A stretch of DNA of 41,099 nt, taken from IMG/VR virus record IMGVR_UViG_3300024331_000005, positions 1 through 41,099 of that record, one strand, 5' to 3'. Below the pieces are notes generated by a model. That model saw nothing but the letters and a program-made list of their open reading frames with translations. It searched no databases and was not told where the DNA came from. Source of the DNA: a virus (Duplodnaviria; Caudoviricetes). How positions within the stretch are numbered: the stretch's first letter is position 1; each line of letters opens with the position of its first letter. Both the position numbers and the translations under genes were made by a program. Of the stretch, positions 1 through 41,099 are shown in pieces.

Positions 1-127
1 AGGCGATCACGGAAACGGCCAATTGCGCCGGAAGCGTGAATACCTCAATCGTATTCGGCAACATTTCCATATTCGTGCCGATAACGGCAGCAGACGCGGC
101 GGTTATCGTAGTGCCAAAACTGATCGT
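1..127. repeat. Terminal direct repeat (circular contig overlap), copy 1
   Basis: 1-127 is identical to 40973-41099. An ORF reads through the junction, and 127 nt equals a common assembler k-mer. Confidence 0.95.
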
Positions 128-346
128 CACAGGAGGCCCGCCAGTGCCGGTAGTCGTATCCCGCACCTCGAATCGATAGCTATTCGTGCTTCCCGTAGTA
201 AGCGAATCGCACGTTAGCGCCTGCGCTGATGCAGTGACTGCAATAGACTTTGTAGAAGTCCCTGCAAGCGGCTGAAATGGCTGCGAAACCGCCTGCCCAT
301 AAGCATGTCCGCACAGCAGCAAAAAAAGACACAGAAGTTTTTTCAT
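1..346 (-). CDS. Origin-spanning 130-aa signal-peptide tail-region protein, 5' part (continues 40972->40926)
   Basis: Translated by hand from ATG 346: MKKLLCLFLLLCGHAYG-QAVSQPFQPLAG...FRCTAGAGQ*. Not in the ORF track. Its stop overlaps the next ATG (ATGA) at 40926-40929. Confidence 0.85.
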   Translation of the reverse strand, partial: MKKLLCLFLLLCGHAYGQAVSQPFQPLAGTSTKSIAVTASAQALTCDSLTTGSTNSYRFEVRDTTTGTGGPPVTISFGTTITAASAAVIGTNMEMLPNTIEVFTLPAQLAVSVIA

Positions 347-357
347 CGCATAATTCC

Positions 358-1851
358 CTATTGGTTCTTGCCGCGTGAGTCAATCCAGCCTAGAGTGGTA
401 ATGATAAATGCATCGCTTGCCCCGCTTGCATCCTGGCGCGTGCGGAATTGCGCGGATGTATTGGTTAATACGCTTTTTTGTATCGTCGTAGAAACCTGCG
501 CGGCGCTATTGGTCCGCAAATCGAATAGGGTTGAGGTCGGCGTGGTATCGGTTTGGGAGAGCGCCGTATACAGATGATTCTGAGCCGATGATGTAGCGTT
601 TTGCTCATTGAATACGCATCTGGCAAATACTGTGATTCCAGTCGGAACAGTCACCGTGCGAGTGACCGCCGAAGTACCCGGATTGCTGACGTTCACGTCA
701 TTTACAGGAACGTCCCAAGTAAACTCATCGCCATTTTGCGCGAATAGAATCCAGTGCGCCGAAGCATCCGTTTTGCCTGATCCGATGCGCCGGTAGATGG
801 TGTAATTCGCTGGCAATGCAGGAGCCGATGCCGACAGGCTGAAAATAACGTCCGTGACATTCGTATCGGGGCGATTGATTTCGTAGAAATGATACCAGGT
901 CGAATTGGCGATTGCGCCCGTATCCAGACCGCCCTGCGCGCTTCCGACTGCCCAGGATGAGGTTGTTTTGGCAATGGATGCCGCCAAGGTCATATAGGCG
1001 GCATTGGTGCTATCCGTGGCAGTTCCTGCGGCAATCGTCATCGTTCCAGAACTACCCGCCGTAGACATGGTAAGACCGGCGATGTAATTGCGCAAAACAA
1101 CGTTCGGCGCGCTGTTATTGATAACCGGCCTGCCGCTCGTATCGTAGCTGACAGTAATGCTCGTGCCCGCCTGAATAAAGCGCGGAATCGAGATATTGGT
1201 AGCCGACAGCAACCCATAAGAAACGGCAGACAGCGGATTTTGCAGCGTCAGTCCGCCATCGTTGATCGTCGTAACTGTGGTAAGCGTGGTGCCGTTATAG
1301 GCGGCAGTGTTTACCGTGGCGTATTTGGTGCCGATGCCGTCAACGATTTGCAGGCGCAGGCCAGCGGTAAACGTTGAAGTCTGATCGCCTGCCAGGGTAA
1401 AACTGGTGCCGCTAACGAATGTAGGTGATGGCCCGGCTACCCATTGCGACTGTGTAACCGTTGTATCATTGATACCCTTGATATTATCGATAGTCCAAAT
1501 CGGACTAGTCGGCGGGTCGGTATCGGTCGGGCTGGCGAGTACGGCCTTATAGGTCAGACCGGCTTGGAAGAAAATGCCGCTTGCCGGTTCGCCTAGAGAG
1601 TTTAAGACGATGGGGTTGGCATTGGCGACTAGACCGGTAGAATCGGTATATGTATTCTGTTTAGTGCTAGTCGATCCGCCAACGTACCAAAATAGTTGAT
1701 AGCCGGTTGCTGGTGCGCCGGTCAGGTCAACGTATTGGGGCTTGGGACCGCCTAGGGAGGATGGGTTTACGGCGGCAATGCCAATCCCCTGCACGAACAG
1801 CAGGGCAAAAAGCAATAAACCGGAGTAAAATTTGCGCATGGATTTATTCAT
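358..1851 (-). CDS. Tailspike/tail fibre with head-binding-like domain and N-terminal signal peptide (start 1851 or 1839)
   Basis: MRKFYSGLLLFALLFVQGIGIA leader, then PKPQYVDLTGAP..LFWYVGG..TYTDSTG..NANPIVLN..YKAVL..WTIDNI, typical of podophage tailspike virion-attachment domains. The rest is S/T-rich and beta-like. Follows the ejection genes. Confidence 0.8.
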   Translation of the reverse strand: MNKSMRKFYSGLLLFALLFVQGIGIAAVNPSSLGGPKPQYVDLTGAPATGYQLFWYVGGSTSTKQNTYTDSTGLVANANPIVLNSLGEPASGIFFQAGLTYKAVLASPTDTDPPTSPIWTIDNIKGINDTTVTQSQWVAGPSPTFVSGTSFTLAGDQTSTFTAGLRLQIVDGIGTKYATVNTAAYNGTTLTTVTTINDGGLTLQNPLSAVSYGLLSATNISIPRFIQAGTSITVSYDTSGRPVINNSAPNVVLRNYIAGLTMSTAGSSGTMTIAAGTATDSTNAAYMTLAASIAKTTSSWAVGSAQGGLDTGAIANSTWYHFYEINRPDTNVTDVIFSLSASAPALPANYTIYRRIGSGKTDASAHWILFAQNGDEFTWDVPVNDVNVSNPGTSAVTRTVTVPTGITVFARCVFNEQNATSSAQNHLYTALSQTDTTPTSTLFDLRTNSAAQVSTTIQKSVLTNTSAQFRTRQDASGASDAFIITTLGWIDSRGKNQ

Positions 1852-6451: not shown

Positions 6452-6739
6452 CTATTGCTCCTTCTCTACTTCGTCAGCATTGAACACACAGAACAGTCGC
6501 GTGTTGTCTTCAAGCGCGATAAACCAATGATCTACGCCGCTATCAATCAGTTTCGCCTCACCTGCCTTGATGGTTCCCTTGAGTTCGCCATCTACAAAAT
6601 ATTCAGCCGATCCGCTACCGCACAGAGTAGGGTGTGAAACGTCATGGCGATGACGCGGCACGCCTTCGCCTTTCATCAGCACCGGAGAGCCGCGAAAATA
6701 AAACTTGCCGCAGAATTCGACGGTTTCTACGTTAGCCAT
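6452..6739 (-). CDS. Cupin-domain protein
   Basis: G..VPRHRHD.SH..LC.SGS and I.SG.DH.F.ALED metal-binding cupin motifs. Confidence 0.75.
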   Translation of the reverse strand: MANVETVEFCGKFYFRGSPVLMKGEGVPRHRHDVSHPTLCGSGSAEYFVDGELKGTIKAGEAKLIDSGVDHWFIALEDNTRLFCVFNADEVEKEQ

Positions 6740-7278
6740 GTCATCTCCGTTTTGATGCAAACAATCATCGCTATCCTGTTGCGTTTGCTATCGTTGTTTA
6801 CCCAATGCGGAATGTCGTTGCGGAATTCGTAGACTTCGCCCAAGTGCGGATGAATCGCCGCACCCTCCCATTCAAACGACGCGCCTGCGTCGTTTTGCAC
6901 CGGGACATAAAACTTGGAGTAATAGCCAGCATGCCATCCGCCATCCACATGCGGCTCGATGCGCCCGCCCGCAGGCACTTTCGTAATCAGCACGCCGCCC
7001 AATCGCTCGCCGTCAACCAGCGCCATCAGCCCAAACAGAATCGGCTTGAGTTCCGGCAGTTCGCGATAGGCCGGATACCACACGGAATCGTGTTCATCAT
7101 TGAAATTCGGCCCTAGGTTTTTGTAATCGTTATAGCGCACCCAAATATCCGACATGGCTGCATGTGCATACGTTTCCTGCCGCATCTTGCGCTCGCCGAA
7201 TAAATGCGTCTTTGCATTCAATGCAATTTGCAGATGCGAAACATCCAAGTCATCATAGATGCGGGCGAATGGCTTCAT
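6727..7278 (-). CDS. 2OG-Fe(II) oxygenase, aspartyl/asparaginyl beta-hydroxylase-like
   Basis: GGRIEPHVD (HxD) ... GEVYEFRNDIPHWVNN.S..NRIAMIV (distal His and Arg). Start MKPF at 7278 overlaps the upstream stop. Confidence 0.85.
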   Translation of the reverse strand: MKPFARIYDDLDVSHLQIALNAKTHLFGERKMRQETYAHAAMSDIWVRYNDYKNLGPNFNDEHDSVWYPAYRELPELKPILFGLMALVDGERLGGVLITKVPAGGRIEPHVDGGWHAGYYSKFYVPVQNDAGASFEWEGAAIHPHLGEVYEFRNDIPHWVNNDSKRNRIAMIVCIKTEMTWLT

Positions 7279-7535
7279 GCGACAGTCCCATCCGCAAGAA
7301 TCCACGTTACGCCATCTTTGGCTATCCAAATCGGTTTACCATGCGCGCCAAGCGACGTATCAAAATAAGTGCGCCCGATGAACAGGAATGTGGTGGGCCG
7401 CTGCGCCGTGGTGCCGCTAGAGGTCAAGCCAGAAAGCAGATTAAACACGGCAGAGAAAAACGATGCCCAGCCGGGATTCTGCATTTCCGCGCCTTGATCG
7501 ACTGCGCCGGATGGGGGCTTGTTTATCAGTGCCAT
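7275..7535 (-). CDS. Small tail-region protein
   Basis: Directly after the gp10-like gene; SGTTAQRPT..GRTYFDT.LG..KPIW....W..ADG motif seen in small tail proteins. Confidence 0.65.
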   Translation of the reverse strand: MALINKPPSGAVDQGAEMQNPGWASFFSAVFNLLSGLTSSGTTAQRPTTFLFIGRTYFDTSLGAHGKPIWIAKDGVTWILADGTVA

Positions 7536-7536
7536 C

Positions 7537-9189
7537 TCAATCGCTCGGATTCACAGACGCGCTAACCAGGCAGAACTTAACCGGGTCAGTCATCGTTATG
7601 CGTGGCGTGAAATTGCGCATCGTGCCCAGCATGTCCCACTCGACTACCTCTGAATAATTCCCGAGTTTCCCGAGCGGTTGCAGCATCTGCGCGCCGTAGG
7701 TCTTTCCGTTGTCGCGCGAAATCTCTAGTCCTACCTGCGGATTCGATCCAGGGTCAACGGTATTGCCGTCGCCAACCTGAATATCCAGCCGGAAACGATT
7801 CACGGTAAATCGGCCGCCATCCGGATCGCGCAACGTCTCGCCGGTCATCTGCACGGTAATAGGCTGGCCGTTGTCGGTTACGCTCGCCGGATTCAGCTTA
7901 TATAAATTCCCTTGCGCGTAATCGCAGATAATCATTTCTCCAAGGAACGGGAACGAAAACTCTCCAAAGTCACGCGTCAATCCCATGCTGTCCCAAGGCG
8001 ACCAAATCTTAGTGGAGCCGTCATAGCACCACGTAGCGCCAGCACTCGGGAAATTACAGATCAACAGCGGATGACCGCCAAGCATCATGCTGTAGAAACT
8101 GGCATCGGCGACGTTTGCGTAGCCATTGATGATCTTGTCCAAGTCCGGATTGGACAATGGCTGCGGCATATAGCCGACAATCTGCGCAATCATTACCTGA
8201 TTGGTGCGGTTGCGCATCAGGCAGGCCACGGTGTTTCCGTAGCGCGCGACGCCAAACGTAGCTGCAAGCCCCCACTCTGACGTAGTGCCCTGCACTTCGC
8301 TAAACAGGAAATCTTGTCCGCCGCTCGCGCCCCAAAACTCCGAGTGTGCCGCACACAGCAGGAACAATTGCCCGTTGGACGTCCAAATCGCCACCATCGG
8401 GTCCGGATGATCCTCTGCCGTGGCGAAATTCAGCGCATAACCGTTCAAGCCGTCGCTAATACCAGAGACAAAAAACGCGCGGGAATTGAGCGATTGCACC
8501 TCAAAGCATTGCAGCAGAAAAGTCACCGTCTGCGGATTCGCAGGAAAGCTAGGCGACGTAATCTGCGCGAATTGCGTAATCGTGTAGGTGCCTTTGGTGC
8601 CCGCTGCGCCGCCCGGATCAACATCCATTGGAAATGTGAACGTCGAAGCGCCCGTTACCGTGATGGTGTAATTGCCGATGTACGCAGCAGGCACTTGACC
8701 CGCGAGGCTGACGATATTGCCAGTCACCAACAGATGCGGCGATGCAGTCGTAAGCGTGGCAATGCCTGCGCTATAGGTAATCGTGCTGATTGCCTGCGGA
8801 GTCGCGCCACCAGGGATTGCGACAGTTGAATAGATGTAGCCATAAGTGCCGTCTACGATCATCAATTGCTGCCCGTTATCGGACATGCTTACGCGGCCCG
8901 ATGTGGTATTCAGCATGCCGAGATTTGTTTTGTTACCGGCGTTATCTACTGACCATAGGACAGATCGATGGACAACGTAGGCGAGCGTGCCTGTCTGAAT
9001 CCACCAGGCCCCGCGAATCGGTGTCGCGCCGAATTGGACGAACAGATCGCGGCCCGGTCTGCCGAAAGCGACTATCTTGGACTTCTCACCATCGGGCCGA
9101 ATTTCCCCGTAAACATTCCGCGCGAGTTTGGCCGTAACGAATGACGATTCGCTTTTCAGGCCAATACCTAGCATGGAGATACGGGGCAT
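7537..9189 (-). CDS. Packaged-DNA stabilisation/tail hub protein, P22 gp10-like
   Basis: VSMSDNGQQLMIVDG, AEDHPD, S.DNGKTYG, G.LGNY...VEW..LG motifs; contains an extra beta insertion (TITYSAGIATLTT..H.L.TG..V). Confidence 0.85.
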   Translation of the reverse strand: MPRISMLGIGLKSESSFVTAKLARNVYGEIRPDGEKSKIVAFGRPGRDLFVQFGATPIRGAWWIQTGTLAYVVHRSVLWSVDNAGNKTNLGMLNTTSGRVSMSDNGQQLMIVDGTYGYIYSTVAIPGGATPQAISTITYSAGIATLTTASPHLLVTGNIVSLAGQVPAAYIGNYTITVTGASTFTFPMDVDPGGAAGTKGTYTITQFAQITSPSFPANPQTVTFLLQCFEVQSLNSRAFFVSGISDGLNGYALNFATAEDHPDPMVAIWTSNGQLFLLCAAHSEFWGASGGQDFLFSEVQGTTSEWGLAATFGVARYGNTVACLMRNRTNQVMIAQIVGYMPQPLSNPDLDKIINGYANVADASFYSMMLGGHPLLICNFPSAGATWCYDGSTKIWSPWDSMGLTRDFGEFSFPFLGEMIICDYAQGNLYKLNPASVTDNGQPITVQMTGETLRDPDGGRFTVNRFRLDIQVGDGNTVDPGSNPQVGLEISRDNGKTYGAQMLQPLGKLGNYSEVVEWDMLGTMRNFTPRITMTDPVKFCLVSASVNPSD

Positions 9190-9193
9190 TTAT

Positions 9194-9595
9194 TTAGCGC
9201 GGCGGATTTGGGTTAAGGCGAACTTTGAGTGGATCACCAGAAACAGAGATGGCGGCTATGTCTTGCTCGCGACAGAGAAGATATTGCTTTCCATCCAAAG
9301 TAATCGGCTCGCCGCCTGAGTTATAACGACCAAAAATCACCCAATCGCCTACTTTGAGCGATGTAGGTACAAGATGCCCATGCTGCGTATGTCCGGCTGC
9401 ATCCAAAAATGTGCTATAGATGCGTCCCGGCCCAACAGCTACAACGCGTCCGCTCGGAAATTTTGCCTCATCTCCTGGCAGAAAAATTCCTCCCTTGGAG
9501 ACTTCTTCTTTCAGTTGCTCGACAATCACAATATCGCTGATTGCGCGCAGCGGGAATTCTTCGGCCTGAGTAAGCGGGACAACATTGCTTTGCAT
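9194..9595 (-). CDS. groES: Co-chaperonin GroES (Cpn10)
   Basis: LRAISDIVIV..SKGGIFLP..GRVVAVGPG..LKVGDWVIF..Y..G..I.LDGKQYLL.RE.DI. Confidence 0.92.
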   Translation of the reverse strand: MQSNVVPLTQAEEFPLRAISDIVIVEQLKEEVSKGGIFLPGDEAKFPSGRVVAVGPGRIYSTFLDAAGHTQHGHLVPTSLKVGDWVIFGRYNSGGEPITLDGKQYLLCREQDIAAISVSGDPLKVRLNPNPPR

Positions 9596-9688: not shown

Positions 9689-10183
9689 ATGACGGCTAAA
9701 GCGGATGTTACCGCAGAATATTTGCGCGAATACTTCATTTACGACAAAGGCACGGGCCTTTTCATAAATCGCAAAAAACGATGGCTGGCACTCGCCGGTC
9801 AGGTCGTGGGACAAATAAACGCCGTTGGCTATTTGGTAGTCGGTATTCATGACCGATCCTGGCTTCTGCATCGGCTTGCATTTTTGTATGTCACCGGAGA
9901 ATGGCCGAAGAATCATGTTGACCATATTGATGGCAATAAACTTAATAATCGCTGGGGGAATCTGCGTGATGTTTCTCAGGAATTGAATACTCAAAATGTT
10001 AAGACTCATCGCAAACACAACAAACTTGGCGTACTTGGCGTTCAAAAAACTCCTTCCGGAAGTTTTATGGCGAGAGTAGTTGTTAAGGGAAAATCGTTTA
10101 CAAAAAACTTTGCAACGCTCGAAGAGGCGCAGGAACATTACCTCGCTCTTAAGCGATTTCTTCATGAAGGAAATACTCTCTGA
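9689..10183 (+). CDS. HNH homing endonuclease with AP2-like C-terminus, antisense within the late operon
   Basis: HRLAFLY..GEWP..VDHIDGNKLNNRWGNLR; C-terminal GVLGV..F.ARV..F.T.EEA; lower GC; AAAGG RBS. Confidence 0.9.
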   Translation: MTAKADVTAEYLREYFIYDKGTGLFINRKKRWLALAGQVVGQINAVGYLVVGIHDRSWLLHRLAFLYVTGEWPKNHVDHIDGNKLNNRWGNLRDVSQELNTQNVKTHRKHNKLGVLGVQKTPSGSFMARVVVKGKSFTKNFATLEEAQEHYLALKRFLHEGNTL

Positions 10184-20159: not shown

Positions 20160-21599
20160 TTAGTGAGCGCATTCAGTCTCATAAATCCCCCAAACCACAT
20201 CCGCAATCGCGTCCTGTCTTTCCCCGAAAAACTCCGCCTGCATCTGTTTCGCGCTCGGCATTTCCGGCATCCAGTGCGGGTGCTTGAGCAGCGTAACCAC
20301 GTTTTCGACGTATTCGCTCACCGTCTGCGCGATCAGGAATTCTTCTGGCATGCCGAAGCGCCGGATACGCATGGCAGCGATTCTCCCGGCTGTTTCATTC
20401 CCCTCAAGCGTAACAGTCGGCACGCCGCATAAAAAGCAATCTTGCACGCTGTTCGTGCCGCCGAATGGGAACGTATCGAGCGCGAGCGTACAGGTTGCCA
20501 AGCGGTCAAGGTAGGTCTGGTAATCCGTCTGCGGATGTACCGTAGCGCGCGGAAACCACTTCCGAATCTCGTAATCGACCATCGCATGCTGCAATCCCTG
20601 CTGGTTCGGGAAGAATACGAATTCCACATCGGGCCAGCGTTCGGCGATCTGTTGTAGGGCACGCATGAACGGCGGAATCAGCTTGGCAGCGATGGCTGGA
20701 ATTGCCACGCGGTTTTTCACTGGCTGATGCGCTGGCGGTATGCCGTCATTGCGCCTAATCGACGTAACGCTCCCATCCGGCAGCGCGACAACCTTTTCGG
20801 AATACATTGCGCGGTCGCCAATGAGCGATTCCTCAGTCAGCAGGTAATCAATGCATGGCGACTGCGAGGAGGCCGGATGACCGGGACACATGATCTGGAT
20901 CGGTGCGAGTCGCAGCGTAGACAGCGTAATCGTCCACGATGCCATACCGATGCTCGGGTAAAAAATGATATCCGGCGACTCTGCCAAGATCATCGCGGAT
21001 ATGTCGGCGAACTCCAATTCATCCTGCGGGATGTGCAGGATGCGCTCGAATACCTCAATCGCTAGATTATCGCTCGCGTCGCCGCCGTACATGCCGACCA
21101 GTTCAAAGCGTGTGCGTAACTGCTTAAGCATGGGCGCATAGCAGCGAAACATGCTGTGATTCGTAGAGAACCATTCGAGCGGGACAAGGATTTTCGGGCG
21201 CGCTTTCGGTTCAGCCTTGCGCTCGCACTCCGGCGTGTCCATGCTGGCGATTGCCATATCCCGAAACCACTTGTTCACCGTGCGCTTGATGGCGTGCTTG
21301 TCGGGCGCGTCGGTGTAGGTGCAGTACATGTAGATTTCGCCCGCGTTGCTCACGGCTTCGTGCGGAATGCCGTATTGCGCGAGTTCGGCATGCAGGGCCA
21401 TGAGTCGCAGGCGCTGCTCATACGCCTTGTCGCTGATGACTATGGGATCGCCTAACGCCTTGAGGATAGCGGCGAGTATGACGGCGGGATGCGGGCCGAT
21501 TGGGGCTACTAGCTTATCGTCAGGTGCGGTGCCGTCTGCGCTCATATTCGCCTGTGAAGCAGCGGCCCATGCTACTAGGCCGTAGCATGGAAGGGTCAT
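20160..21599 (-). CDS. HMW1C/NGT-like protein N-glycosyltransferase (CAZy GT41)
   Basis: YMYCTY..KH.IKR..N; LEWF...HSMFR; FYPSIGM..L...RLAPIQ...GHP.S..S..IDY; AAKLIP.F; Y..YL..L..C...L..FPFGGTN...D. These motifs are collinear with HMW1C/ApNGT. Confidence 0.9.
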   Translation of the reverse strand: MTLPCYGLVAWAAASQANMSADGTAPDDKLVAPIGPHPAVILAAILKALGDPIVISDKAYEQRLRLMALHAELAQYGIPHEAVSNAGEIYMYCTYTDAPDKHAIKRTVNKWFRDMAIASMDTPECERKAEPKARPKILVPLEWFSTNHSMFRCYAPMLKQLRTRFELVGMYGGDASDNLAIEVFERILHIPQDELEFADISAMILAESPDIIFYPSIGMASWTITLSTLRLAPIQIMCPGHPASSQSPCIDYLLTEESLIGDRAMYSEKVVALPDGSVTSIRRNDGIPPAHQPVKNRVAIPAIAAKLIPPFMRALQQIAERWPDVEFVFFPNQQGLQHAMVDYEIRKWFPRATVHPQTDYQTYLDRLATCTLALDTFPFGGTNSVQDCFLCGVPTVTLEGNETAGRIAAMRIRRFGMPEEFLIAQTVSEYVENVVTLLKHPHWMPEMPSAKQMQAEFFGERQDAIADVVWGIYETECAH

Positions 21600-38232: not shown

Positions 38233-38535
38233 TTACGCGCCCGACGCTGCTTGCTGCTGCGAATTGAACGAATCCGCCGCCGCCTTGATGGCGATAACGG
38301 TATTCACCAGAGCAGGCAGAGCGGCTTGTACGGCTTGCAGGTGGGCATCGGGCGGCGCATTCGCACCGGCAGCAGTAGCAGCGGCAGTAACCACGGCGCC
38401 GACTTGCTGCACTACGGCATCGGCTTTCGCAGCACCTTGAGCGGCATGGGGAAATGACGGCTCAAGCGCAACGATGGTCGAATGGATCATCGGGAAAAGC
38501 TGGGCAAACAGTTGCAGGATGGCGAGAAATTGCAT
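38233..38535 (-). CDS. Amphipathic Ala-rich protein, last gene of the lysis cassette
   Basis: MQFLAILQLFAQLFP..; AAAGG RBS; no lipobox. Confidence 0.7.
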   Translation of the reverse strand: MQFLAILQLFAQLFPMIHSTIVALEPSFPHAAQGAAKADAVVQQVGAVVTAAATAAGANAPPDAHLQAVQAALPALVNTVIAIKAAADSFNSQQQAASGA

Positions 38536-38537
38536 GA

Positions 38538-38798
38538 TTAACCTTTCGTGGGTTGTTTGGTGATGCGGGCGATAAAAGCCAAGAGAGCAAGCAGGGAATA
38601 TAGCCCATGCTCCGCTCTTGGAGATAAAACATCTTTCAGTTGCGGGACGAATTCTAGAGCCATTGGGGCCATAGCTGCGAGGCCGAGAAGCCAAGTCGAT
38701 AGCCATTTCCAACAGTAGCGAACGTCTGAAACGAACAATTTCAGGCCGGGAGAGGGTTGCGGGTCATCCTCTGGAATTACGGTTACTGGATCGGTCAT
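38538..38798 (-). CDS. Holin-like two-TM protein
   Basis: WKWLS.W, two TM segments, AR..KQ end; follows the endolysin. Confidence 0.75.
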   Translation of the reverse strand: MTDPVTVIPEDDPQPSPGLKLFVSDVRYCWKWLSTWLLGLAAMAPMALEFVPQLKDVLSPRAEHGLYSLLALLAFIARITKQPTKG

Positions 38799-39244
38799 GA
38801 TTCCTCCGGAGTCAGAAACAAAGCCTTTTCATCCGCGCGCCTAGCAGCAAGCCCGGCCATATGCTTTCCGGCTGCCATGTCCCAAACGAGAAATTGGGCA
38901 GCAGCGTCCGCATAGTGCCCGCCATTCAGCAGTCGCAGAAGCGTCGAATTCTGAAAATTCCGTACCCCGATGTTGTAAACCAGCGAGCATAGAGCGTCGA
39001 ACTGGTTTTGTGACAATGGAACCATAACCTCCTGCGTAACCGCCCTTGCAGCCCATTCAGAATCGGTTTGTAGGTCTTCTAGAGCCTTCTCCGTGGTCAC
39101 GGTATACCCTGGCACCACTTCCGGTCCCGTATGCCCGTATCCGACCGTCCAAGGCGCTCCGCCGGTAGCCGGATCAGGGTATGCCTCTAGCCGTAATCCT
39201 TCATGGTTGCCGATGAATGCTAGACCCTTGGCGGAAATGTTCAC
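38795..39244 (-). CDS. Endolysin, GH24 lysozyme
   Basis: HEG.RL.AYPD......WTVGYGHT (E-D-T catalytic motif), QFDAL.S..YN.G, GL..RR..E..LF; GTG start at 39244. Confidence 0.95.
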   Translation of the reverse strand: MNISAKGLAFIGNHEGLRLEAYPDPATGGAPWTVGYGHTGPEVVPGYTVTTEKALEDLQTDSEWAARAVTQEVMVPLSQNQFDALCSLVYNIGVRNFQNSTLLRLLNGGHYADAAAQFLVWDMAAGKHMAGLAARRADEKALFLTPEES

Positions 39245-39423
39245 TTGTGGTATCCGTTCACCCAAATCATGAAATAGGCAATTCCGCCCAATCCGGCAAC
39301 CATGATCCCGCCAAGCGACCATTTCCCTAGATCGGCAAACTTTTCGTTAAGCCATTCCTTGATGGCGAGCTTCATCTGCGCCTTTACATCTTCCGGCGTC
39401 ATTTCAGGCATCACTAGCACCAT
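39241..39423 (-). CDS. Single-TM holin/antiholin-like protein
   Basis: C-terminal TM segment; coupled to the lysozyme gene. Confidence 0.65.
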   Translation of the reverse strand: MVLVMPEMTPEDVKAQMKLAIKEWLNEKFADLGKWSLGGIMVAGLGGIAYFMIWVNGYHK

Positions 39424-39429
39424 AAACGA

Positions 39430-39578
39430 AAGTCCTAACCATGTGTGTAATCCCTAAAGGCTATTGCGACTCAATAGGGACTATGCCAACATCATCCCGC
39501 TGTCATTGCCAGCAGGGGCCTTTGTCCCGGTTCTTACCAACCGGGGGCGCGAGCAAAAGCTATGCTTGCGCGCCCTTT
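39430..39578 (-). ncRNA. Multi-hairpin leader upstream of the lysis genes
   Basis: At least four stems: GGGCGCG..CGCGCCC; CCCGGTT..AACCGGG; CCTGCTG..CAGCGGG; CTATTG..CAATAG. Confidence 0.4.
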
Positions 39579-39859
39579 TAATTCATCTGCGAAACAGGGC
39601 TAACAACTATCGCTTGCTGCGCCTGTCCATTCTCTACGCCAAACATGGACGACTGAATGGAAGCGATAATGCATTGCTTCACCTGAGCCGCCGTTACTGT
39701 GCCCTTCGTTGCTGCTACTGTCACGCCCAATCCTGGCCCGACAGCGAAGCACCAGTTTTGCAGCCGTGCATCTGTTGCCGCGTCCGTGTTGATTGTAGCC
39801 GTTCCTGCCGTTGCTGAAACCGTGAAAAATAACAGCACCAGTGCAATAACTTTCCGCAT
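39578..39859 (-). CDS. Small secreted protein (signal peptide, 2 Cys)
   Basis: MRKVIALVLLFFTVSATA-G; AAGGGG RBS. Confidence 0.8.
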   Translation of the reverse strand: MRKVIALVLLFFTVSATAGTATINTDAATDARLQNWCFAVGPGLGVTVAATKGTVTAAQVKQCIIASIQSSMFGVENGQAQQAIVVSPVSQMN

Positions 39860-39951: not shown

Positions 39952-40929
39952 CTATCTAACGCGTCGCAATCGTATGAATCCGTAAGTTGTGATATTGGCG
40001 CTCACCGTGAAGATAGGGGCTGCGACCATGAACACTGTGGACGTACCGGATAGGCTGATCCGTACAGTCGGCGTCAGGCGGCAATTTTCGCTAGTCGTTG
40101 TAGCGAGCGGGACCATCGCCGCAAATTGCTCAGTGCTGTATGTCCCGAGCGCGCCAAATGTATTCGTGGCCGTACTGATGCCCTGCTTGTAGACCGTAAA
40201 TGAGGTAGAGGCGGCGCTGATATAACAGGTAAGTCCCTGGACATCGTAATCGCCTGCCGTGACAGTCGCACCAGTGCTGACTACCGTAATCGGGGTGTTG
40301 CTGCTGGCGGTGACAACTGCGCCGGTAGAAGCAACGGAGAATTCTCGTTCCTCTCCCCATGATCCCGCCTGCGCGTTGTTGTTGGTAGTTGTCCCAACAA
40401 TACCGTTTATCTGCGCTGGTGTAAAAGTTGTCGCGCCAGACATTGAAACATTACCAAATAGCGTAATCGTGCTCGCAGACGAACGAATGGACTCGGCGCC
40501 CCCGGCAGTAAGGCTTACCTGATTTCCTGCTACAGAAAACAATCCCGTAGAAGCGCCGCCAATAGACAGGCTTGGAGCACCTACCGCACCGGACGGTAGC
40601 GTAAAAATATTATTTGCTATTGTCGCCCCCGCCGTACTCGCGCCTCCCGACGAAAAGCTAATCGTCGCCCCCGAGCTAATCGTCCCATTGCCATCCGTCG
40701 CCAAGTTCGTATTGCAGGTAAACGCGCCCGCCGAGGAGTAAATTAAGCCGCCAGCGGTGGAGCAGGTTGCGGTAGGGACTGATCCAGTACCAGAGCCGCC
40801 CGCCACCGCCCGCAGCGCCCCGTTCGCCTGATTCGGCGCAATGCCGATAACGGAGAGAGCGACTAGAAGGGCGGCGACGAATAGGCCGCTTAGATAGTTG
40901 CCGAGTTTGTCGGATTTGTGCGTGTTCAT
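39952..40929 (-). CDS. Tail fibre-like protein with N-terminal signal/TM segment
   Basis: LSGLFVAALLVALSVIGIAPNQANG leader; G/S/T-rich shaft; C-terminal GTTTNNNA.AG..GE...AGDYDV.G...YG.IR.RRVR domain seen in phage fibres. Confidence 0.75.
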   Translation of the reverse strand: MNTHKSDKLGNYLSGLFVAALLVALSVIGIAPNQANGALRAVAGGSGTGSVPTATCSTAGGLIYSSAGAFTCNTNLATDGNGTISSGATISFSSGGASTAGATIANNIFTLPSGAVGAPSLSIGGASTGLFSVAGNQVSLTAGGAESIRSSASTITLFGNVSMSGATTFTPAQINGIVGTTTNNNAQAGSWGEEREFSVASTGAVVTASSNTPITVVSTGATVTAGDYDVQGLTCYISAASTSFTVYKQGISTATNTFGALGTYSTEQFAAMVPLATTTSENCRLTPTVRISLSGTSTVFMVAAPIFTVSANITTYGFIRLRRVR

Positions 40930-41099
40930 TGTCCAGCCCCCGCAGTGCAACGGAATGTCGATCCGGTAGCCGAGGCGATCACGGAAACGGCCAATTGCGC
41001 CGGAAGCGTGAATACCTCAATCGTATTCGGCAACATTTCCATATTCGTGCCGATAACGGCAGCAGACGCGGCGGTTATCGTAGTGCCAAAACTGATCGT
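40926..41099 (-). CDS. Origin-spanning 130-aa protein, 3' part
   Basis: Same frame as 1..346 once the genome is circularised; TGA at 40926-40928. Confidence 0.85.
   Translation of the reverse strand, partial: TISFGTTITAASAAVIGTNMEMLPNTIEVFTLPAQLAVSVIASATGSTFRCTAGAGQ
40973..41099. repeat. Terminal direct repeat (circular contig overlap), copy 2
   Basis: Identical to 1-127. Confidence 0.95.

What the first reader, a model, noticed from the sequence alone, without database searches (positions are those of the whole stretch)
358..1851. Tailspike with a Sec-type signal peptide in front of its head-binding domain
Seen: MRKFYSGLLLFALLFVQGIGIA/A (basic n-region, hydrophobic core, small-residue cleavage site) precedes a typical virion-attachment domain. 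No ATG lies between the leader and that domain. Known: tailed-phage virion proteins normally fold in the cytoplasm without signal peptides, but P22 tailspikes are added last and can bind finished heads in vitro. Inference: this spike may be exported to the periplasm and join particles only at or after lysis. Alternatively it may act as a secreted receptor-masking protein.
Basis: partly seen in the sequence, partly recalled or inferred. Interest (0 to 1): 0.85.

Follow-up and report, generated by a model that had tools for sequence, protein, structure and literature searches.

The report
Phage tail spike with export signal
This uncultured short-tailed phage starts its only predicted tail spike, and the three genes after it, with predicted bacterial export signals, so these outer parts likely fold outside the cytoplasm and would join the finished virus particle only when the cell bursts.

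Summary
Observation confirmed. In a complete circular P22-like podophage genome, ORF 358-1851 has a Sec-type leader in front of a Pam1/P22/Sf6-type head-binding domain. 14 of 99 other listed homologues with that domain have such a leader, in three separate tree groups, each ending where leaderless homologues begin. The body is a four-domain fibre, not a beta-helix tailspike. It is the genome's only head-binding gene, and that domain is strongly conserved while the tip drifts, as expected of a virion-anchored spike. The spike itself has one cysteine. Cultured precedents exist: three leader-bearing proteins of Cellulophaga phage phi18:3 are annotated as structural from MS/MS, and leader-bearing fibre genes occur in PBR31, BcepC6B and KL4. 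Best reading: the appendages are exported, mature in the periplasm and dock at lysis. Export, cleavage and virion incorporation are untested here. Ten literature searches found no description of this route. This scan has already noted the trait in many other phage genomes.

The parts
358..1851 (-). Fibre-like tail spike gene (497 aa from ATG 1851; the frame is open up to ATG 1926, with TTG 1890 having the best ribosome site)
1774..1851 (-). Predicted Sec/SPI signal peptide, residues 1-26, cleavage after G-I-A
   Evidence: sequence
1453..1773 (-). Head-binding (tail-attachment) domain, residues about 27-133
1201..1449 (-). Small beta-barrel domain, residues about 135-217
   Evidence: Z 7.2 to a Klebsiella K1 lyase region; common fold
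724..1104 (-). All-beta domain resembling part of Bordetella phage Mtd, residues 250-376
   Evidence: 1yu0 Z 9.1, rmsd 2.8, 100 aligned
373..738 (-). C-terminal beta-sandwich tip resembling the Bdellovibrio Bd2133 fibre tip; likely receptor-binding; holds the only cysteine (C412)
   Evidence: 8ok3 Z 9.3, rmsd 2.8, 107 aligned
1..346 (-). 130-aa jelly-roll protein with leader and invariant Cys46/Cys124; runs across the circular junction (first part)
40926..41099 (-). End of the 130-aa protein (127-nt terminal repeat duplicates positions 1-127)
39952..40929 (-). 325-aa second fibre-like protein with leader and four cysteines; no head-binding domain
   Evidence: family members link to BcepC6B gp19, KL4 gp48, PBR31 gp35
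39578..39859 (-). 93-aa protein with leader and two cysteines
   Evidence: counterpart in L001
7537..9189 (-). Tail hub (P22 gp10-like, phrog_578), leaderless; likely docking partner
38233..39423 (-). Lysis block: small membrane protein, endolysin, holin, 99-aa protein; no lipobox spanin found

Best explanation
This gene encodes the phage's only predicted tail spike, which is likely exported by the host Sec system, cleaved to the same N-terminus as ordinary leaderless spikes, folded in the periplasm with three co-exported neighbours, and would dock on the tail hub of finished particles once lysis mixes the compartments. Shown: the leader sequence, its position, its recurrence in homologues, the domain homologies and the single copy. 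Inferred: translocation and cleavage (about 0.9), virion incorporation of the exported form (about 0.65), timing at holin-endolysin lysis, and the reason (disulfide bonding of the neighbours, with the spike co-exported to meet them).
For: 1) 15 of 100 listed homologues with the head domain (this one included) have a leader; all 15 end in a small residue within one position of where leaderless ones start, e.g. leaderless P0067 begins M-AVNPSSLGGPKPQ. 2) Leaders fall in three tree groups, 6 changes, at least 4 forced by well-supported branches (quick tree). 3) No internal start codon is conserved: none near the junction in L099, and L001 has TGG where the window has ATT. 4) Only one head-domain gene in the closed genome, in the usual slot between ejection and lysis genes. 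5) Against L001 the head domain is 95 of 104 identical (pS 0.85, pN 0.07) while the C-terminal half is 57%; leader-bearing heads score as well as leaderless ones on a leaderless-only profile (median 143.8 vs 140.5). 6) Head trimer with tail hub: weak support, score 0.50, best control 0.01, runs agree in at least 93% of contacts, partner pLDDT at least 89; the mark was met by 116 of 157 solved and 2 of 215 mismatched pairs, but at 0.60 or under by only 18 of 157 and both mismatches, and like complexes are solved. 7) The next three genes have leaders, here and in L001; the Cys46/Cys124 pair is in 9 of 13 leader-bearing and 0 of 18 leaderless small-protein homologues; even cysteine counts in 25 of 28 leader-flagged vs 18 of 56 other second-fibre homologues. 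8) 3 of 12 proteins annotated 'structural, MS/MS' in phage phi18:3 start with leaders. 9) The Sf6 tailspike is the last part added (PMC9728967); Bd2133, with a similar tip, formed fibres from a PelB-leader construct (PMC10769870).
Against: No export, cleavage or virion data exist for this phage. The spike has one cysteine, and cysteine counts do not separate leader-bearing from leaderless spikes, so disulfides do not explain its own export. 85 of 100 homologues lack a leader, so export is not needed for the fold. 4 of 6 other leader-bearing loci show no flagged leader in the genes called downstream, and 22 of 103 leaderless loci do (many are lysis genes). In cultured PBR31, BcepC6B and KL4 the main spike is leaderless and only the next gene has a leader. 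The cysteine correlations are not corrected for kinship; the nine small proteins are one close group. phi18:3 proteins show no homology to these, and co-purification with membranes cannot be excluded from an annotation line. An ATT at 1779 has a weak AGGGG upstream.
Confidence: 0.62

Rival explanations
1. Dual fate: some protein is made leaderless from an internal start (or escapes export) and assembles normally in the cytoplasm; the exported pool has another job.
For: ATT at 1779 has AGGGG 6 nt upstream and would give M-A-A-V-N; L002 and L184 have in-frame ATGs in or just after the leader. It would keep the textbook assembly route.
Against: The ATT is not kept in L001 (TGG) and L099 has no start codon near the junction; leaders end exactly at the mature start in 15 of 15. 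DNA for most leader-bearing proteins was not available to check.
Confidence: 0.15
2. A free secreted decoy: it masks the receptor on the infected cell or on debris (superinfection exclusion, or protecting progeny) and is not a virion part.
For: Export fits a cell-surface role; the tip resembles a secreted bacterial adhesin tip; one leader-plus-head-domain gene (L164) lies on an Acidobacteriaceae MAG contig whose downstream genes do not look like virion genes.
Against: A decoy would not need a head-binding domain under strong purifying selection; the phage would have no other head-binding spike; the gene sits in the late virion block; Sec alone reaches only the periplasm (established knowledge).
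Confidence: 0.12
3. The leader is not cleaved and tethers the spike to the inner membrane until lysis.
For: The model shows one helix over residues 3-20; n-regions may be long (up to 39 or 51 residues with the upstream starts).
Against: The hydrophobic core is short (about 9-10 residues) and every leader ends in a small-residue motif at the mature start.
Confidence: 0.08
4. Annotation artefact: the upstream codons are not translated.
For: ATG 1851 and 1839 have weak ribosome sites.
Against: No ATG downstream before the domain; leaders recur with different sequences in three tree groups; several sure genes here also have weak sites.
Confidence: 0.03

Closest known systems
Podophage tailspikes with an N-terminal head-binding domain: Pam1 (7eeq), Pan3 (9vyg), P22 gp9 (8eb7, 8tvr), Sf6 gp14 (7sg7)
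   Same: Homologous head-binding domain; P22-type coat, portal, hub and ejection genes; same gene slot; spike added last in Sf6.
   Different: A signal peptide in front of the domain (P22 tailspike has none, bioRxiv 10.64898/2026.09.13.751334); no beta-helix; three more leader-bearing genes follow.
Xanthomonas phage PBR31 (gp34, gp35); Burkholderia phages BcepC6B (gp19) and KL4 (gp48)
   Same: PBR31 gp34 shares the head domain (43% over 70 residues); gp35, gp19 and gp48 belong to the second-fibre family and carry leaders with 2, 4 and 2 mature cysteines.
   Different: Their main spikes are leaderless. The only 'signal peptide' passage in the PBR31 paper concerns the esterase gp40.
Cellulophaga phage phi18:3 gp85-gp87
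   Same: Tailed-phage proteins with Sec-type leaders annotated as structural from MS/MS.
   Different: No detectable homology; Bacteroidota host; location in the particle unknown to me.
Bdellovibrio MAT fibres (Bd2133) and Bordetella phage Mtd
   Same: Similar tip and mid-domain folds (Z 9.3 and 9.1); MAT proteins are phage-fibre-like trimers on the bacterial surface.
   Different: MATs are cellular adhesins without a head-binding domain; sequence identity 11-19%.
Filamentous phage coat proteins pIII and pVIII (recalled)
   Same: Virion proteins made with Sec leaders.
   Different: They stay in the membrane and the particle is extruded through it; tailed phages assemble in the cytoplasm and lyse.

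Membership tests
P22-like podophage head-binding spike/fibre | N-terminal head-binding domain homologous to P22 gp9N / Sf6 gp14N / Pam1 | tested here: met
P22-like podophage head-binding spike/fibre | Encoded in a P22-type virion module after the ejection genes | tested here: met
P22-like podophage head-binding spike/fibre | Binds the tail hub as a trimer | tested here: inconclusive
   weak support (0.50 vs 0.01), possibly from likeness to solved complexes
P22-like podophage head-binding spike/fibre | Present on the virion | not testable with these tools
   uncultured phage; no proteomics
Enzymatic beta-helix tailspike (P22 gp9 type) | Parallel beta-helix catalytic body | tested here: not met
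   (mean pLDDT 89, four compact beta domains); no Pfam or PHROG lyase hit
Sec/SPI-exported protein | Basic n-region, hydrophobic core, small residues at -3 and -1 | tested here: met
   sequence; (own rule, not SignalP)
Sec/SPI-exported protein | Leader is translated (no internal start replaces it) | tested here: inconclusive
   no ATG and no conserved near-cognate start, but no expression data
Sec/SPI-exported protein | Actual translocation and cleavage | not testable with these tools
   needs reporter fusion or N-terminal MS
Disulfide-bonded periplasmic protein | Paired cysteines tied to the leader (the spike itself) | tested here: not met
   one Cys; no difference between classes
Disulfide-bonded periplasmic protein | Paired cysteines tied to the leader (the three neighbours) | tested here: met
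   93-aa protein has two Cys here and in L001; geometry of the pairs not measured
Lipoprotein (SPII) | Conserved lipobox cysteine | tested here: not met
   no Cys in the window's leader; an L-A-C in L001 is not shared
Capsid cement protein (130-aa neighbour) | Jelly-roll fold matching a known cement | tested here: inconclusive
   best Z 7.8 (Ena, 7a02), BPP-1 cement 3j4u Z 5.5; common fold

The most novel reading that the evidence does not exclude
Some tailed phages split virion assembly between two compartments: core particles are built in the cytoplasm, while the whole host-recognition kit is secreted, matured in the periplasm and fitted only during lysis. The switch has been gained or lost repeatedly by adding a leader to ordinary spike genes.
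Probability: 0.55. Interest if true: 0.88.

Novelty: new variant of a known kind. Interest (0 to 1): 0.74.

Why it matters
Tailed phages are thought to build all their parts in the cytoplasm. A spike that passes through the periplasm would add an assembly step at lysis, allow disulfide-stabilised or host-modified appendages, and mean that particles are not infectious until the cell opens. It would also change how spike genes are annotated and expressed in the laboratory. Cultured phages with the trait (phi18:3; PBR31, BcepC6B and KL4 for the second fibre) make it testable now.

Tried and rejected
Pfam and PHROGs gave no usable hit for the spike or the three neighbours. A viral-contig scan with the single protein found no relative. 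No cultured phage covers 80% of the spike, and none of the 9 records hit by the head domain was shown to have a leader on it (only PBR31 was checked). N-glycosylation sequons are not enriched in the spike (10 vs 7.6 expected, p 0.21), so I dropped a link to the phage's glycosyltransferase. No promoter, terminator or notable RNA fold near the start. JC1 virion proteomics did not help: 0 of 24 morphogenesis proteins have a leader by my rule, which serves as a negative control. No RNA holder listed. The Atlas gave unnamed viral clusters for the small protein; its PDB sequence search gave nothing significant. Tip swapping among leader-bearing spikes is rare (1 of 14 others lacks this C-terminal half), so I did not use it as an argument. 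Host not identified: five GTDB hits, in MAGs of Sterolibacterium (58%, leaderless), Hyphomicrobiaceae, Thiohalomonadales and two Acidobacteria. The careful tree did not finish; the quick tree was used. My leader rule also flagged three doubtful ORFs elsewhere in the genome (starts 30126, 32792, 18758), missed five evident leaders, and mislabelled L002 and L164 (corrected by eye).

Full report
Setting. The window is a closed phage genome: its last 127 bases repeat its first 127, giving 40,972 bp. It has a P22-type coat and portal, terminase, scaffold, tail hub, adaptor and an ejection protein, so it is a short-tailed P22-like phage. The one run that holds it fully is labelled soil metagenome and may be its source; that run's assembly matches 100-2300 without differences. 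The host is unknown.

The observation. The ORF ending at 358 has a basic stretch, a hydrophobic core and G-I-A before A-V-N-P-S. Four starts are possible (1926, 1890, 1851, 1839); TTG 1890 has the best ribosome site, and all four keep the core. No ATG lies between leader and domain. Residues about 27-133 match the Pam1 and Pan3 tailspike head-binding domains by profile (E about 1e-12) and Pam1, P22 gp9N and Sf6 gp14N by fold (Z 10.5, 8.7, 8.4; rmsd 2.2, 2.9, 4.3; 93, 90, 95 aligned). The rest is a small barrel, a domain like part of Bordetella phage Mtd (Z 9.1) and a tip like that of the Bdellovibrio fibre Bd2133 (Z 9.3); there is no beta-helix.

Is the leader real? The search listed the best 120 of 841 hits. 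100 of the 120 have the head domain; 15 of these, this protein included, have a leader, and 85 do not (two of those, P0049 and P0066, are called from well inside the domain and cannot be judged). All 15 leaders end in a small residue within one position of where leaderless homologues begin, so cleavage would rebuild the normal N-terminus. On a quick maximum-likelihood tree of all 100, leaders fall in three groups and need 6 changes, at least 4 forced by well-supported branches (shuffled mean 14.3; gain cannot be told from loss). In 245 fetched loci, 147 distinct head-domain genes were found; 6 besides the window's own have a leader (two recognised by eye), and some overlap the protein set. No internal start is conserved: the window has an ATT with a weak site just before the junction, L001 has TGG there, L099 has no start codon near it, while L002 and L184 do have in-frame ATGs nearby. 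SignalP was not available; my rule flagged 0 of 24 JC1 morphogenesis proteins and seven ORFs in this genome, four in the block and three doubtful.

It is a block. The three genes after the spike (130, 325 and 93 aa) all start with leaders, and so do their counterparts in L001. None of the core head and tail genes was flagged. The 130-aa protein is an eight-strand jelly-roll with no decisive structural match. Among 31 aligned homologues (one 2280-aa hit left out), Cys46 and Cys124 are present in 9 of 13 with a leader and 0 of 18 without. In 84 proteins sharing the 325-aa protein's C-terminal domain, 25 of 28 flagged leaders go with an even, non-zero cysteine count, against 18 of 56 others (Fisher p 5e-7). 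Neither count is corrected for kinship. Against this, the spike has a single cysteine and cysteine counts do not track its leader; only 2 of 6 other leader-bearing loci have flagged leaders downstream, and 22 of 103 leaderless loci do, many in lysis genes.

Does it join the virion? It is the only head-domain gene in six frames of the closed genome. Against L001 its head domain is 95 of 104 identical with synonymous sites near saturation (pS 0.85, pN 0.07), while the C-terminal half is 57% identical; leader-bearing heads fit a leaderless-only profile as well as leaderless ones do. A head trimer folded with the phage's tail hub gave weak support only: 0.50 against a best control of 0.01, contact agreement at least 93%, partner pLDDT at least 89; 116 of 157 solved and 2 of 215 mismatched pairs reached the mark, but at 0.60 or under only 18 of 157 and both mismatches, and similar complexes are solved. 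They are not homologous to these proteins, and I saw only the GenBank note, not the paper. In cultured PBR31, BcepC6B and KL4 the second-fibre gene has a leader while the main spike does not.

Mechanism. Most likely the four late proteins go through Sec, are cleaved by signal peptidase I, and fold in the periplasm, where the three neighbours would form disulfides; when holin and endolysin act, periplasm and cytoplasm mix and the spike docks on the hub. The Sf6 tailspike is the last part added and binds the hub through two protomers (PMC9728967, passages). That P22 spikes attach to finished heads in vitro is recalled, not from a call. A fibre with a similar tip formed from a PelB-leader construct (PMC10769870, passages). 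I found a holin and an endolysin but no lipobox spanin; a slow outer-membrane step would give time for docking, which is speculation. Export, cleavage, incorporation and timing are all inferred.

What is known. Ten full-text searches (listings and abstract starts) found no paper describing exported virion appendages in tailed phages. A 2026 preprint notes that the P22 tailspike has no signal peptide, presumably since it needs no export (passages). The PBR31 paper mentions a signal peptide only for gp40 (passages); the Tunturi phage paper has no occurrence of the term (term search); JC1 (section 25 and passages), PMC3426561 and PMC13730344 (passages) added nothing on export. Most subscription papers are not in the library, including the Pam1 structure paper and, I believe, the Cellulophaga proteomics paper, and I read no supplements; either could bear on the claim of novelty. 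This scan has noted the same trait in many other genomes, though none with look-alike sequence; those notes are leads, not evidence.

Verdict. The finding is real. The protein is a head-binding spike of a known kind with an unusual, likely exported maturation route. Interest 0.74.

Noticed in passing
window 20160-21599 (-): Glycosyltransferase with GT41 and HMW1C-domain hits, conserved at 61% in the L001 genome; could glycosylate virion proteins, but sequons are not enriched in the spike.
   Followed up: partly
window 6452-7329 (-): A cupin and an Asp/Asn beta-hydroxylase-like gene inside the tail module, between the hub and the ejection genes.
   Followed up: no
window 9194-9595 (-): Phage-encoded GroES co-chaperonin next to the tail hub gene.
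   Followed up: no
window 9689-10183 (+): HNH endonuclease inserted on the opposite strand between adaptor and GroES.
   Followed up: no
window 38233-38532 (-): 99-aa protein with an amphipathic-looking N-terminus after the holin, with counterparts in L001 and L084; no lipobox spanin was found, so it may be the outer-membrane disruptor.
   Followed up: partly
window 7537-9189 (-), residues about 128-202: The tail hub has an extra domain of about 80 residues (phrog_9998 hit) that most homologues of about 470 aa lack.
   Followed up: no
L164:2682-4863: Leader plus head-domain protein with 13 cysteines on an Acidobacteriaceae MAG contig; downstream genes look like a PadR regulator and a permease (labels recalled), not virion genes.
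   Followed up: partly
L084:8004-12079: The closest leaderless relative is followed by several fibre- or esterase-like genes, one with a leader.
   Followed up: partly
L247:9675-10484, L248:10960-12033, L249:3395-4327: Cultured phages PBR31, BcepC6B and KL4 carry leaders on an annotated structural or tail fibre gene.
   Followed up: yes
L001:13555-14172 vs window 38795-39322: The close relative has swapped in a different endolysin while keeping the leader-bearing block.
   Followed up: no
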